Of a stretch of DNA of 32,000 nt, positions 6,801 to 9,800 are shown one piece after another. Numbering within the stretch: position 1 is the stretch's first letter; every line of letters begins with the position of its first letter. The stretch comes from Xylella taiwanensis (GTDB lineage: Bacteria; Pseudomonadota; Gammaproteobacteria; Xanthomonadales; Xanthomonadaceae). The DNA is taken from contig NZ_CP053627.1 of the NCBI RefSeq assembly GCF_013177435.1, positions 1,440,001 to 1,472,000 of the forward strand, written 5' to 3'. The position numbers were made by a program.

Positions 6801-9800
6801 GCTGGCGTGGCTTAACAAGCGCTACTGAAGGATTGGGCATCGACGACATCTTATTAGTAGTTGCGCATGATGCAGTCAACCGAGTGCTCCTATGTCGAGT
6901 GATGGGACTGCCGTTGGCCCATTTATGGCGCTTCCACCAAGCACCTACTACGCTGAATTTGCTCGAAGGAAAAGATCTTGACCAGCTACAAGTAGTACGC
7001 CTAAACGACTGCGCTCACCACACACCGTTCTTCGGTGAAGCTAGGCATCGTGCACTGTAGCATTGATTTTAGAGAGCAAGGTTCATAAGCCCATGCATAA
7101 ATGGACATAATATGCATTATGCGAAATGAAATGTGAAAGAGCGACAAAGCGCGCAGACACACTGTTAAGTTGGCTACAAACCAAACTTAACACCCTCAAA
7201 GCCATGCTAACGCCAGCATCGCTAGCATGGCTGTAGTCATCGAAGATCCCATCACCGATCAAGTGCTCAATGAAAACTGGACGGGGTTTGCATTTAGAAA
7301 CGGATATCTGGTAACACCGGAAAGACGGTACATCGAACCGTATCAACTGCGATGGCTATCACTCACATGCACACTGGCACGGGAATGGCAAAAAATGATG
7401 GAGCACGCACGAGCGGTTCCATTACAAGGCGGCCCTGCCGCGACCGATCATCAACGCCTCATTAACGACGCCCAAAAAACGGGTTTGCGTAACAGAAAGT
7501 GTCCTGACACGGACATAGGATCGGTCATCCTGCTTAGCCATGTACTGATGCAACGCCAACACAAGCGTTAACCGTAGGGGGTAAACCCCCTACACCCCCT
7601 ACTCGGATACAAAGATTAAGGAAAAATCCTAAGCTAAACCGAGGATGCACATTCCAGCCAATTTTCGATCTTAAGGCCACGAATACGCTTAAACTCTTTA
7701 ACATTATCCGTTACCAATGTCATCCCCAGTACATAAGCATGAGTACCTATCAATAGATCATTTAAGCCGATAGTTTGTCCTACTGACTCCAACTCTGCAC
7801 GAATGCGACCATATTCAGCGTCGGTAGGAATATCCAAAGGCAGCACAGGAATTGTTTCAAGCATGAGCTTCACCTTCGCAAGCAACTTGGTCGATCCTTT
7901 CTTTGCACAACCATACCGCAACTCAGCAGCGACAACGATGCTAGTGCAAACCTCTTTTGGATCGACCTTTTCAATGCGACACGCAACTAGTCCAAACGGA
8001 TTACGGATCATGTCGCTAATGATGTTCGTATCGAGCAAATATCCGCTCAAAATATGTCATCCGGCTTAGCAAGCATGTCCTCAATTTCAGGAAACTGATC
8101 TTCAAGTCCAAGCGGATCTTCCGTTTTCCACTGCGCTAACAATTCTATAATGTTGGTAGGCATGCTCACAGGCTCAATGATGAGCTTGCTACCCTCGCGA
8201 TGAATCAATACTCGATCCCCCGGTAATTCAAACTCAACCGGAATTCTCACGGCCTGACTGCGATTGTTGCGGAACAGCTTAGCTTCCTTGAGTCTAGATG
8301 ATGGCATAGAAATAGACATAGTATCGGCTCATTGTATATGCCATATTGTATATGTAAATATCGGAGCTGCGGTCGCTGCGACTATCATCAAATTCTTCTG
8401 ACCAATACTTAAGGTAACGCCCCTGCCGCAGACACACTCACCTGCTTAGCCGTACTGCCCTGAACCAGTGAAGACGATACTTGCCCCTGTTGCATAGCAC
8501 TATGCTCCTGCACACGCTCACGATACGGGTTATACACCGGACCCCGCCGCGCGATCGTTCGACACTCCAGCTGTGAAATGTCATACACCGTCCCCTGCTC
8601 GGTGTAACACGTGCAGGACGAACCCTTATACACCCCCTGAGCATCCAGACCCGCACCGCCAGACATACAGATCAATTGAGGATCTACCGTCGGGGAACGA
8701 TGATCATAAATCGGAGCCGTCCACGGCATCGATGCAAAACGCGGTAAATGATCTTTGGCATAGGCTGTGACTGTCGGCCAACGTGGCCCCTCCCCACGGC
8801 TAGCTTCACCCGCTTTCGGGGACGCATCGCCGCCGGTACCCGGCGTGCTCCGCGTCCCCTCAATTGAGGAAGAAAACCCCGAAGGGATCAAGGAACGATA
8901 GGCATAAAAGACACAGGCCACAATGACAACAACCATTAACGGAATCAATACAAGCTGCCAAGGCAGACGCATCTTGATGGTATGCACTTCGGCTGATTTA
9001 TACAGCTTATACACGTGCTTAGGTAGACGACGCACCGAATGCCGTGAAAACTGACGATTGGTAGAAGAATCAGTCTCTTCAACAAGCTGATCCCAGTCAT
9101 ACACATCTAGCCAGGACGTGCCAAAACGACGTTTCACAAAGGTATGACGGCCAATCAAACCACGCACAAAAGGATACAACTGCTTATGCGCCAATTGCGT
9201 CGTCCACACAAAATCTAACCCACGGTGGCGATGCTCAGCAAGCTCAAGGGCATGAGGCGGCGTCGGCTGATGGGACGCATTAAATGCACTGCCAAACCAT
9301 TTCCACGCCTCATCTATAAAAATAATAGCTCCATGAGGCACAAGATACTCACCCTGATCATTTTTAGCATTCCACTGCCGAGGGTCCGCCAGATCCGCCG
9401 CAAGGCCAGGGGCTAATCCATCAATCCCCGCCGCAAAAATCGGACGCTGAGCACGCTCACTCTCAGCCAATAACATCTCCATCATTAAAGCCGTTTTCCC
9501 GCCTCCAGGCGTAGCCGTAATCACGTGAATAGGCATACACGCCCCCTGTCAAGAAACCGATGTGGGCGGCGTACCGCCATAACCGCGCTTAAATAAATAC
9601 AACCGCCCATTCAATACCGCAAACCGGGCCACATACGCAGAAATAATCATCGACAACGCACGATCAACATTCAAAATACCCAACGCCCTCACCGCCAAAT
9701 CGCCGAACTGACCACCGCTAGAACCCACACTATCCATATACGTATATAACTGATCCACAAGAGGCGATATCACAAAATGATAGGACCCCCAATTAATACC

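What the first reader, a model, noticed from the sequence alone, without database searches (positions are those of the whole stretch)
7126..7571. Candidate Xer activation factor (XafT/DUF3653-like) encoded directly beside each dif-like site
The 114-aa ORF at 7227-7571, with a paralog at 14844-15188, starts 100 bp from the XerC arm. It carries WTGFAFRNGYLVTPERRYIEPYQLRWL. From memory, this resembles the TPEG-type DUF3653 domain found in XafT, the TLCphi protein that activates XerD catalysis on attP sites lacking a proper XerD arm. The internal dif-like site here has exactly such a degenerate XerD arm. The two paralogs differ by many synonymous changes, which indicates purifying selection. In integrase-bearing prophage 3 the N-terminal DUF3653-like part is deleted. 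That fits a function tied to Xer-dependent integration.
Basis: inference. Interest (0 to 1): 0.75.

Follow-up and report, generated by a model that had tools for sequence, protein, structure and literature searches.

The report
DUF3653 gene beside phage dif sites
The gene is real: a small DUF3653 protein at the end of two tandem filamentous prophages sitting in the chromosome-dimer resolution site of Xylella taiwanensis; this kind of gene was already known, but published work disagrees on whether it helps integration or virus packaging.

Summary
ORFs 7227-7571 and 14844-15188 each encode a 114-aa protein that passes Pfam DUF3653 (31.4 and 31.7 bits, cut-off 22.4). Each starts 99 nt from the XerC arm of a dif-like site. 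The window comes from Xylella taiwanensis PLS229, in the terminus region.

The protein is not an XafT-family member in the strict sense. It has no HTH domain and scores 37 bits against NCBIfam NF040522 "VC1465 family Xer recombination activation factor" (cut-off 70). It is a full-length ortholog of ORF112/PSB15 of Xanthomonas phage phiLf: 55% identity over the domain, the same repressor-attP-DUF3653-hairpin-Zot layout.

A 2024 preprint reports that PSB15 binds the packaging signal and is not needed for integration. Midonet 2019 had already linked DUF3653 genes to all dif-integrated Xanthomonadales phages.

My comparison supports a link to Xer-type lysogeny. About 25 related prophages keep the gene beside an attP that lacks one Xer arm. 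In 17 of 19 such sites the only conserved base on the XerD side is G at position 5. An integrase-type sister lineage, shared by two Xylella species, replaced attP plus the DUF3653 N-terminus.

Function is unresolved: roughly 0.5 for a Xer role, 0.3 for packaging only. This is a new member of a known kind, of modest interest.

The parts
7100..7127 (-). Dif-like site 1, the left prophage/host junction. Read on the minus strand: XerC arm ATTTCGCATAA (7127-7117), central TGCATA (7116-7111), XerD arm TTATGTCCATT (7110-7100). It probably serves as the functional chromosomal dif.
   Evidence: X. fastidiosa has the same site next to gpmB. The locus is at about 1.44 Mb of a 2.82 Mb chromosome, and GC skew changes sign here.
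7200..7232 (+). 10-bp inverted repeat, AGCCATGCTA...TAGCATGGCT, that pairs across the start codon (ATG 7227-7229) of the DUF3653 ORF.
   Evidence: RNA fold -17.2 kcal/mol, z -3.1. The arms are identical in the P2 copy (14817-14849, z -3.9) while the loop differs.
7227..7571 (+). DUF3653 gene of prophage 1, 114 aa. Predicted beta-hairpin at aa 22-29, helix at 44-63, disordered linker, basic C-terminal helix at 103-113.
7572..7602 (+). Conserved hairpin element CCGTAGGGGGTAAACCCCCTACACCCCCTAC, starting right after the stop codon.
   Evidence: It lies just downstream of the DUF3653 gene, usually within about 15 nt of the ORF end, in phiLf, Cf1c, fSU1, Stenotrophomonas phages and prophages of 6 genera. 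It is also retained in integrase-type prophages.
7634..8319 (-). Variable cargo slot of prophage 1 between the DUF3653 gene and zot: a VapC (PIN) toxin and a MazE/AbrB-type antitoxin.
8409..9536 (-). Zot/pI assembly ATPase of prophage 1. It marks the start of the morphogenesis module, which converges on the DUF3653 gene.
14300..14785 (+). Prophage 1 repressor (HTH_3 + DUF3693). Its 3' end contains the attP-type site. In the circular or tandem form it lies directly upstream of the DUF3653 gene.
   Evidence: phiLf-UK has the same arrangement.
14718..14745 (-). Internal attP-type site between prophages 1 and 2: XerC arm ATTTCGCATAA, central TGCATA, degenerate XerD side ATCTGTCCACT.
14844..15188 (+). 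DUF3653 gene of prophage 2, 114 aa, 96.2% nt identity to the P1 copy.
15189..15215 (+). Conserved hairpin element, prophage 2 copy.
15224..15774 (-). Variable cargo slot of prophage 2: YafQ toxin and RelB/DinJ-type antitoxin.
22061..22178 (.). attL of integrase-type prophage 3. This 118-nt repeat includes a partial tRNA-Lys copy and is 97% identical to 30212-30329. It also encodes the C-terminus of the prophage 2 repressor (21808-22284).
22067..23035 (-). Tyrosine integrase of prophage 3. Together with the tRNA-like att site, it occupies the place where prophages 1 and 2 have the dif-like attP plus the DUF3653 N-terminal half.
23089..23236 (+). Decaying remnant of the C-terminal half of a DUF3653 gene, homologous from about aa 67 ('QGG') onward.
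   Evidence: The breakpoint is shared with the X. fastidiosa M12 integrase-type prophage. A 1-nt indel between the two copies shifts the frame. No Pfam or PHROG hit.
23237..23263 (+). Conserved hairpin element, prophage 3 copy. It is retained although the DUF3653 domain is gone.
30212..30356 (-). attR of prophage 3 (30212-30329) overlapping the intact tRNA-Lys(UUU) gene (30281-30356).

Best explanation
The ORF is a real, conserved gene for an HTH-less DUF3653 protein. It is the Xylella ortholog of ORF112/PSB15 of Xanthomonas phage phiLf. It is the terminal gene of the 'dif-type' lysogeny module (repressor, attP, DUF3653) of two tandem filamentous prophages integrated by the host XerCD recombinases at the chromosomal dif site.

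Most likely mechanism:
- It is the phage's trans-acting accessory factor for Xer recombination.
- In the circular replicative form, or at a tandem junction, it lies just downstream of the repressor gene and can be transcribed with it.
- Its N-terminal beta-hairpin and helix is the only part shared with XafT. This part contacts XerD and lets XerCD recombine dif, without FtsK, with an attP that has a perfect XerC arm, a dif-identical central region and a poor XerD arm.
- Integration cuts the gene off from the repressor operon.
- A second role in virion assembly, as reported for PSB15, is not excluded and may coexist.

Shown here: gene, domain, orthology, synteny, attP anatomy, co-occurrence with dif-type lysogeny, and loss in the integrase-type lineage.
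Inferred: XerD contact, XerD activation, co-transcription with the repressor, and the expression switch.
For: 1. DUF3653 passes the Pfam cut-off. The domain is homologous to that of HTH+DUF3653 proteins that pass the NCBIfam VC1465/XafT model.
2. The gene lies 99 nt from the XerC arm. VC1465/XafT also lies on the XerC-arm side of the TLCphi attP.
3. In the roughly 25 Zot-related Lysobacterales loci whose prophage end was readable, and in phiLf, Cf1c, PSH1 and SMA9, a DUF3653 gene (weak HMM or motif-only hits in about half the loci) sits roughly 50-140 nt from a site made of a XerC arm, a central region and either a host XerD arm or a non-XerD arm. The central regions co-vary with the host dif: TGTATA, TGCATA, TGTACA, TGAATA, TGCATC.
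4. On the degenerate XerD side only position 5 is conserved: G in 17 of 19 unique sites. Miele 2022 found this position important for XafT-driven recombination.
5. An integrase-type lineage replaced exactly the attP plus the DUF3653 N-terminal half. The same breakpoint occurs in X. taiwanensis P3 and X. fastidiosa M12, on different backbones. The remnant is decaying while the neighbouring hairpin is intact. In M12 the integrase-type and DUF3653-type prophages share a backbone 99.35% identical over 6.9 kb.
6. More distant Zot relatives that carry integrase-like ORFs lack DUF3653.
7. Literature: DUF3653 genes cluster at dif across gamma- and beta-proteobacteria. The rstR/attP/xafT module is shared by Vibrio inoviruses and non-filamentous DJR phages, which assemble differently. 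XafT is detected only from the non-integrated form.
8. L011 carries 1.5-kb mini-elements at dif, each consisting of an attP and an HTH+DUF3653 gene with no recognisable morphogenesis genes.
Against: 1. The only experiments on this subfamily (the phiLf PSB15 preprint) report several things. Purified protein binds the packaging-signal hairpin through the WAGFXF motif. Of 100 suppressors of a packaging-signal mutant, 54 map to T7A or T22A. Loss of the protein collapses phage yield. attL and attR are still detected by PCR.
2. The protein fails the curated VC1465 model and has no HTH.
3. That DUF3653, rather than the HTH, activates XerD is itself an inference in Midonet 2019.
4. The subfamily has its own conserved C-terminal basic helix, (V/I)I.L...L.QRQ.KR, which XafT-type proteins lack. 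PSB15 uses this region for membrane binding.
5. The gene's adjacency to attP means a module swap could remove it as a bystander.
6. Both Xylella genomes with an integrase-type prophage also carry a DUF3653-type prophage that could supply the protein in trans.
7. Some relatives (phiSHP2, SMA6, SMA7) have the opposite attP, with a good XerD arm and a degenerate XerC arm. So 'compensating a missing XerD arm' is not a universal rationale.
8. The position-5 G lies inside the repressor coding sequence, and the sites are phylogenetically related.
Confidence: 0.5

Rival explanations
1. Packaging only (PSB15-type). The protein binds the packaging-signal hairpin of the phage ssDNA with its N-terminal WxGFxF/TPE hairpin. 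It tethers the DNA to the inner membrane through its basic C-terminal helix and hands it to the Zot/pI assembly machine. It has no role in Xer recombination. Its position beside attP is only operon history.
For: - It is the closest characterised homolog: 55% identity over aa 11-63, E 2e-22. tblastn lands exactly on phiLf-UK ORF112.
- The alignment runs full length and includes W35, W46 and the basic helix.
- The predicted architecture is the same (compared).
- Synteny and the downstream hairpin are the same.
- Preprint data cover packaging-signal binding, suppressor genetics, trans-complementation of the assembly defect and unchanged attL/attR.
Against: - The work is a preprint only, and no later publication was found.
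- Integration was scored by end-point PCR, which cannot exclude a large quantitative drop.
- No convincing packaging-signal hairpin with the published consensus could be found in prophages 1 and 2.
- LTG, the motif holding suppressor residue T7, is LNE here.
- The C-terminal disordered tail used for cardiolipin binding is absent.
- Integrase-type phages on a 99.35% identical backbone lack the domain.
- The WxGF/TPE core is conserved in elements with unrelated or no packaging: HTH+DUF3653 mini-IMEXs and Vibrio DJR phages. That argues for a universally conserved partner such as XerD.
Confidence: 0.3
2. Another lysogeny-control role, for example an anti-repressor, an excision directionality factor or a regulator co-transcribed with the repressor. 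The protein would act on phage gene expression rather than on XerD or on packaging.
For: - It lies immediately downstream of the repressor and co-directional with it. In phiLf the two ORFs overlap.
- Fused repressor-DUF3653 ORFs exist (P0081).
- A stable hairpin sequesters the start codon.
- The Vibrio literature labels XafT/P15 a 'transcriptional regulator'.
Against: - There is no DNA-binding HTH in this subfamily.
- No experimental support exists anywhere.
- The idea does not explain the tight link with one-armed attP sites.
Confidence: 0.1
3. The gene is a non-functional passenger or a decaying ORF in defective prophages.
For: - Prophage 2 is a chimera that cannot excise by either system alone.
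- Prophage 3 carries only a remnant of the gene.
Against: - dN/dS is about 0.25 between the paralogs, with only synonymous changes in the domain.
- X. fastidiosa orthologs are 59-65% identical.
- There are 65 clusters at 50% identity among 1.84 billion representatives.
- Motifs are conserved across genera.
- The fold is predicted with confidence for aa 11-63.
Confidence: 0.03

Closest known systems
PSB15 / ORF112 (ORF9) of Xanthomonas phage phiLf-UK (MH206184; UniProt Q8P905), with orthologs in Cf1c, XacF1, Cf2, Xf109, Xf409, phiXv2, PSH1, SMA6, SMA7, SMA9, phiSHP2; PHROG 2188
   Same: - A protein of about 110 aa with an N-terminal DUF3653.
- WxGFxF and TPE motifs, helix 1 (LSLTCxxAREWxxMM), and a basic helix ((V/I)IxL...QRQxKR).
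- The gene follows the DUF3693/HTH repressor, which contains attP, and converges on zot.
- The same CCGTAGGGG...CCCCTACACCCC hairpin follows the stop codon.
   Different: - Identity outside aa 11-63 is low.
- LTG is LNE here.
- The linker is longer (aa 64-100) and there is no C-terminal disordered tail.
- The gene is separated from the repressor by 58 nt with a start-codon hairpin, instead of overlapping it.
- The host is Xylella.
- A toxin-antitoxin cargo is inserted between the gene and zot.
XafT (VC1465) of the Vibrio cholerae satellite phage TLCphi; NCBIfam NF040522 'VC1465 family Xer recombination activation factor'
   Same: - A homologous DUF3653 domain. hhalign probability is 98.4% against proteins that pass NF040522.
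- The gene is on the XerC-arm side of an attP with a perfect XerC arm, a dif-like central region and a deficient XerD arm.
- The element integrates at dif.
   Different: - No XRE HTH domain, and about half the size.
- Scores 36.9 bits against a cut-off of 70, covering only the second half of the model.
- phmmer from the window protein returned no named XafT/VC1465 protein; the XafT sequence itself was not available.
- Its own conserved C-terminal helix.
- No experimental link to XerD; the ortholog is reported as dispensable for integration.
The rstR / dif-like attP / xafT lysogeny module with a hypervariable cargo region between xafT and zot, in Vibrio CTX-I inoviruses. Also the dif-type versus int-type module exchange in Vibrio DJR phages (Commun Biol 2025, PMC12715192)
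   Same: - The terminal gene pair is a repressor and a DUF3653 gene flanking attP.
- A variable cargo slot lies between the DUF3653 gene and zot: here VapBC, YafQ/RelB and MazEF in the three prophages.
- Tandem IMEX arrays occur.
- An integrase-type alternative module exists.
   Different: - A different host order and phage lineage.
- The DUF3653 protein has no HTH.
- Here the module swap is caught inside one array, with the breakpoint in the middle of the DUF3653 ORF.

Membership tests
Pfam PF12375 (DUF3653) | HMM score at or above the gathering threshold of 22.4 bits | tested here: met
   31.4 bits (P1 copy) and 31.7 bits (P2 copy), E about 2e-7, aa 15-67, model positions 6-53 of 66.
Pfam PF12375 (DUF3653) | Conserved core W-x-G-F-x-F ... 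T-P-E ... L-x-W-x-S-L | tested here: met
   WTGFAF, TPE and LRWLSL are present. W18, G20, F21, F23, T30, P31 and E32 are invariant or nearly so across 46 family members.
VC1465/XafT family (NCBIfam NF040522) | Whole-protein score at or above the curated cut-off of 70 bits | tested here: not met
   36.9 and 36.7 bits, matching model positions 52-103 of 111 only. Controls P0121, P0169 and P0071 score 84-100 bits.
VC1465/XafT family (NCBIfam NF040522) | N-terminal XRE-type HTH fused to a C-terminal DUF3653 | tested here: not met
   No HTH hit in Pfam or NCBIfam. DUF3653 starts at about aa 12 of 114.
VC1465/XafT family (NCBIfam NF040522) | Encoded on the XerC-arm side of an attP that lacks a proper XerD arm, in an element integrated at dif | tested here: met
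   The ATG is 99 nt from the XerC arm. The attP XerD side, ATCTGTCCACT, has 5/11 mismatches to the consensus. The terminus location is supported.
VC1465/XafT family (NCBIfam NF040522) | Binds XerD and activates XerD catalysis; required for integration | not testable with these tools
   This needs pull-down, in vitro recombination or a quantitative integration assay. For the ortholog PSB15, end-point PCR still detected attL and attR after knock-out.
PSB15/ORF112 family of Xanthomonadaceae inoviruses (PHROG 2188) | Sequence homology to phiLf ORF112 along the protein | tested here: met
   tblastn gives E 2e-13 on phiLf-UK 5145-5309(-). BLASTP gives 55% identity, E 2e-22. The C-terminal basic helix aligns (I101, L103, R110, K113 invariant). 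PHROG 2188 hits at E 1.5e-29 over aa 4-114.
PSB15/ORF112 family of Xanthomonadaceae inoviruses (PHROG 2188) | Layout: N-terminal hairpin, helix 1, linker, basic helix 2, disordered tail | tested here: inconclusive
   The AF2 model shows the hairpin at 22-29, helix at 44-63, disordered 64-100 and helix at 103-113. The tail is absent and the linker is longer than described for PSB15.
PSB15/ORF112 family of Xanthomonadaceae inoviruses (PHROG 2188) | Synteny: downstream of the DUF3693 repressor containing attP, convergent with zot, followed by the GTAGGGG hairpin | tested here: met
PSB15/ORF112 family of Xanthomonadaceae inoviruses (PHROG 2188) | A cognate packaging-signal hairpin (stem GGX(A/-)CCG(C/T)G, essential loop) in the phage genome | tested here: inconclusive
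   The 9-mer occurs at 12693-12701(-) and 13147-13155(+) in P1, and likewise in P2. There are 8 hits in the window against 1.45 expected. None sits in a stable short hairpin: fold z-scores are 0.0 to 0.7.
PSB15/ORF112 family of Xanthomonadaceae inoviruses (PHROG 2188) | Binds packaging-signal DNA, cardiolipin and thioredoxin; needed for virion assembly | not testable with these tools
   Biochemistry and phage-yield assays are required.
IMEX (integrative mobile element exploiting Xer), TLC-like attP class | Element bounded by dif-like sites, with no own recombinase, and an attP with one good arm and a dif-identical central region | tested here: met
   P1 is bounded by sites at 7100-7127 and 14718-14745 with identical XerC arms and central regions. 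P1 and P2 contain no integrase.

The most novel reading that the evidence does not exclude
The HTH-less DUF3653 proteins of Xanthomonadaceae inoviruses, this one included, could be bifunctional switches. The same N-terminal hairpin would activate XerD for FtsK-independent integration and would bind the packaging signal for assembly. Expression would be gated physically: attP lies between the gene and the repressor gene upstream of it, so the protein is made only from the circular or tandem form. On this reading the natural 'integrase for attP+DUF3653' swap seen in Xylella shows that the domain's indispensable job is integration.
Probability: 0.2. Interest if true: 0.6.

Novelty: new member of a known kind. 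Interest (0 to 1): 0.3.

Why it matters
Xylella is a quarantine plant pathogen, and its filamentous prophages sit in the site that resolves chromosome dimers. Knowing which phage protein lets XerCD act on a one-armed attP would explain how these elements enter, stack and leave dif.

The wider point is a conflict in the literature. Midonet 2019 and the Vibrio work treat DUF3653 as the Xer activator. The only experiments on the Xanthomonadaceae subfamily call it a packaging factor that is dispensable for integration.

The Xylella array offers a natural test case. Near-identical phage backbones carry either attP plus DUF3653 or an integrase plus a tRNA-like att site, and the swap breakpoint lies inside the DUF3653 ORF. 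This makes the question directly testable, but it does not reveal a new kind of system.

Tried and rejected
1. Megablast of prophage 1 against the phage collection found no match. Only protein-level search found relatives.
2. The E. coli dif pattern does not occur in the window. The Xanthomonadaceae XerC arm was used instead.
3. The XafT (VC1465) sequence itself could not be retrieved.
   - No supplementary text is held for Midonet 2019.
   - Cluster look-ups returned unnamed metagenome proteins.
   - The gap was bridged with proteins NCBI names as VC1465 family and with the NCBIfam model.
4. Packaging-signal search. Consensus 9-mer hits exist, but no convincing hairpin does. The P3 Rep is unrelated to phiLf gII, so the signal could not be mapped by homology.
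5. L012 (Stenotrophomonas sp. JC08) was first taken as a second integrase-type phage lacking DUF3653. I rejected it: its 'integrase' is a host gene conserved about 2 kb from dif in many Lysobacterales loci.
6. Fold search against viral predicted structures and a PDB sequence search gave nothing usable.
7. Look-up of the gpmB-like product failed, apparently because of a start-codon mismatch. The S46 peptidase was used to locate the source genome.
8. The hairpin after the stop codon was considered as an intrinsic terminator. I rejected it as a canonical one because neither strand has a T-run.
9. A chance 'class B' site at 11295-11322 and 18731-18758, produced by my loose pattern, was ignored.
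Full report
**What is there**

The window is from Xylella taiwanensis PLS229, CP011800.1, at about 1.438-1.470 Mb of a 2.82 Mb chromosome. GC skew changes sign at about 6-7 kb, as expected near the terminus.

Host genes occupy the left end: glutathione peroxidase, thiC with a TPP riboswitch, an S46 peptidase and a gpmB-like phosphatase. After them come three filamentous (Inoviridae) prophages, and then tRNA-Lys and queC.

- P1 and P2 share 5.9 kb at 99.2% identity: 8409-14302 matches 15845-21738.
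- P3 is a 68-93% identical relative over the segments that align.
- All three have Zot/pI, DUF2523, a coat protein, a Rep protein and a DUF3693 repressor.

**Checking the observation**

ORFs 7227-7571 and 14844-15188 each encode 114 aa and contain the quoted peptide.

Two dif-like sites exist. Read on the minus strand:
- 7100-7127: ATTTCGCATAA TGCATA TTATGTCCATT
- 14718-14745: ATTTCGCATAA TGCATA ATCTGTCCACT

Each ORF starts 99 nt from the XerC arm.

Both proteins pass Pfam DUF3653, with 31.4 and 31.7 bits against a gathering score of 22.4.

The paralogs differ at 13 nt: 7 synonymous and 6 non-synonymous, dN/dS about 0.25. Only synonymous changes fall inside the domain. That is consistent with purifying selection, but on small numbers.

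P3 has a tyrosine integrase at 22067-23035 (-). It is bounded by a 118-nt repeat containing part of tRNA-Lys. It keeps only the C-terminal half of the gene.

**What the protein is**

tblastn against phage genomes hits only Xanthomonas and Stenotrophomonas inoviruses. In phiLf-UK it lands on 5145-5309(-), which is ORF112.

A 2024 preprint (10.1101/2024.03.19.585677) names this protein PSB15. It describes an N-terminal DUF3653 with LTG, WAGFXF and TPE motifs, then helix 1, a linker, a basic helix 2 and a tail.

The window protein matches this description closely:
- It aligns with PSB15 over its length. Identity is 55% over aa 11-63, E 2e-22.
- It shares W35, W46 and the basic helix.
- It hits PHROG 2188 end to end.
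- AlphaFold2 predicts a hairpin at 22-29, a helix at 44-63, a disordered stretch at 64-100 and a helix at 103-113.

Synteny is identical. In phiLf the XerCD core lies inside the 3' end of the DUF3693/HTH repressor, just upstream of ORF112, which converges on zot. The window has the same order, with a toxin-antitoxin cargo inserted before zot.

**Relation to XafT**

XafT (VC1465) is an XRE HTH fused to DUF3653. Its gene lies on the XerC-arm side of the TLCphi attP.

The short family here is homologous to HTH+DUF3653 proteins: hhalign probability 98.4%, E 6e-15, aa 10-70.

NCBI now has a curated model, NF040522 'VC1465 family Xer recombination activation factor', with a cut-off of 70 bits.
- The window proteins score 36.9 and 36.7 bits and match only the DUF3653 half.
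- PSB15 scores 39.4 bits.
- Genuine HTH+DUF3653 proteins score 84-100 bits.

So the protein shares a domain with XafT but is not a member of that family as curated. No solved or useful predicted structure was found.

**Comparative evidence on function**

A Zot-based scan of species-representative genomes gave 50 loci. I searched them with a family HMM and Pfam.

Nearly all Lysobacterales prophages of this type show the same ends.
- At one end, a repressor contains an attP-type site.
- At the other end, a DUF3653 gene lies roughly 50-140 nt from a full dif-like site.
- The central regions of the two sites of a prophage are identical and differ between hosts: TGTATA, TGCATA, TGTACA, TGAATA, TGCATC.

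In 'class A' sites (phiLf, Cf1c, PSH1, SMA9, Xylella and most loci) the XerC arm is perfect and the XerD side is unrecognisable. The exception is position 5, which is G in 17 of 19 unique sites. [quoted passage not shown]

A 'class B' also exists, in phiSHP2, SMA6 and SMA7. There the XerD arm is intact, the XerC arm is degenerate, and the site is in the opposite orientation.

**The integrase-type lineage**

In P3 the integrase and the tRNA-like att site replace exactly the dif-like attP plus the first 66 or so codons of the DUF3653 gene.

The same junction is present in an integrase-type prophage of X. fastidiosa M12.
- A 1-nt indel there shifts the frame of the remnant, so the remnant is not coding.
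- The adjacent hairpin is intact.

P3 and the M12 prophage align only in the integrase and Rep regions, at 70-77%. The module therefore sits on different backbones.

Within M12, the integrase-type and DUF3653-type prophages share a backbone 99.35% identical over 6.9 kb. They differ only in this module.

This ties the DUF3653 domain to dif-type lysogeny. The domain is absent wherever the phage brings its own integrase.

Two caveats apply. The gene is physically next to attP, so a module swap could remove it as a bystander. And both genomes also hold a DUF3653-type prophage that could complement in trans.

**Weighing the two published functions**

For a Xer role:
- The attP anatomy, the G5 signal and the module swap described above.
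- Minimal 1.5-kb dif elements that carry an attP and an HTH+DUF3653 gene (L011).
- The module is shared by Vibrio inoviruses and non-filamentous DJR phages.
- The family-wide association with dif.

For packaging only:
- These are the only experiments on an ortholog. They report packaging-signal binding, dominant suppressors in T7 and T22, an assembly defect rescued in trans, and attL/attR still detectable.
- The subfamily has its own basic helix.

The integration test in the preprint was end-point PCR and cannot exclude a large quantitative effect. The preprint has no later published version in the library.

I could not find a convincing packaging signal in P1 or P2.

My estimates are about 0.5 that the protein acts in Xer recombination (alone or with a packaging role), 0.3 that it is a packaging factor only, and the rest for other roles.

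**Novelty**

The DUF3653-dif link in Xanthomonadales phages (2019), the repressor/attP/xafT module with a hypervariable cargo slot (2025) and PSB15 (2024) are all published. NCBI already labels the X. fastidiosa orthologs as DUF3653 proteins.

This is a new member of a known kind. The useful addition is the natural integrase-for-(attP+DUF3653) swap within one Xylella array, which gives a clean way to test the disputed function.

Noticed in passing
window 7572-7602, 15189-15215, 23237-23263; also L001 4942-4972, L002, L003, L007-L032, L058-L066: A hairpin element of about 30 nt, CCGTAGGGG(C/G)-loop-(G/C)CCCCTACACCCC, lies just downstream of the DUF3653 gene, usually within about 15 nt of the ORF end. 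It occurs in 33 sequence variants across Xanthomonas, Stenotrophomonas, Luteimonas, Pseudoxanthomonas and Xylella, and in phages phiLf, Cf1c, fSU1, PSH1, SMA6, SMA7, SMA9 and phiSHP2. The stem sequence is nearly invariant, the 8th pair covaries (C-G to G-C), the loop is free, and no T-run follows. It is retained in integrase-type prophages that lost the DUF3653 domain. Its function is unknown. It could be a cis element such as an origin, a protein-binding site or an unconventional terminator.
   Followed up: partly
window 7200-7232 and 14817-14849: A 10-bp stem, AGCCAUGCUA/UAGCAUGGCU, pairs across the AUG of each DUF3653 ORF. RNA folds give -17.2 and -19.5 kcal/mol, with z-scores of -3.1 and -3.9. 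The arms are identical in both copies and the loop differs. It is absent from the X. fastidiosa orthologs. It may be a translational control element.
   Followed up: partly
window 7634-8319, 15224-15774, 23267-23862: The slot between the DUF3653 gene (or its remnant) and zot holds a different type II toxin-antitoxin pair in each prophage: VapC/MazE-like in P1, YafQ/RelB-DinJ in P2 and MazE/MazF in P3. This resembles the 'prophage hypervariable region' described between xafT and zot in Vibrio inoviruses.
   Followed up: partly
window 14748-22178, compared with L061 9815-15126 and L058: Prophage 2 is a chimera. Its left end is dif-type (attP, DUF3653). Its right end is integrase-type: repressor 21808-22284 reads into a partial tRNA-Lys att site. 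There is no third dif-like site. The whole array bridges dif and tRNA-Lys with no host DNA between them. X. fastidiosa subsp. pauca has a single prophage bounded the same way. This suggests an old recombination between a dif-integrated and a tRNA-Lys-integrated prophage that deleted the intervening DNA. Such a chimera could not excise by either system alone.
   Followed up: partly
L058 (X. fastidiosa M12, CP000941) 949-18572: Two inverted inovirus prophages share a backbone 99.35% identical over 6.9 kb. One ends in an integrase plus a tRNA-Lys fragment. The other ends in a DUF3653 gene plus the dif-like site ACTTCGCATAA TGCCTA TTATGTCCACG. The arrangement looks like an inversion, or gene conversion, between co-resident prophages.
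   Followed up: partly
L066 (phiSHP2) about 4911-4938, L063 (SMA6) about 6437-6464, L064 (SMA7) upstream of 7015: Some Stenotrophomonas inoviruses have the opposite attP design. The XerD arm is good (TTATGTTCAAG), the central region is TGTATA, the XerC arm is unrecognisable, and the XerD arm faces the DUF3653 gene. DUF3653 genes therefore accompany attP sites missing either arm.
   Followed up: partly
L011 12779-15820 (Stenotrophomonas sp. NPDC077420): Two tandem copies of a 1507-bp mini-element lie at dif, next to an inovirus prophage that has its own short DUF3653 gene. Each copy carries one HTH+DUF3653 (VC1465-type) ORF of about 250 aa and an attP, ATTTCGCATAA TGTATA TTGGGCCGACT. No morphogenesis genes were recognised in it. 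It looks like a minimal TLC-like IMEX.
   Followed up: no
L008 14351-15439, L013 14306-15403, L029 14736-15899, L056 417-1514, L012 12403-13527, L015 2293-3384: A tyrosine-recombinase gene of about 365 aa is highly conserved (phmmer E 1e-176 to 1e-208) about 2 kb from dif in several Lysobacterales genera. It appears to be a host gene, not part of the prophages.
   Followed up: no
P0081 (X. campestris pv. merremiae, 268 aa); L003 3406-3975 (phage fSU1): Some records annotate one long ORF that fuses the repressor, or upstream sequence, to the DUF3653 protein by reading through the attP core. The attP core translates as ...LYIMS... in these ORFs.
   Followed up: no
window 3888-3986 (-): A TPP riboswitch lies upstream of thiC (Rfam RF00059, 60.4 bits). 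This is ordinary.
   Followed up: yes
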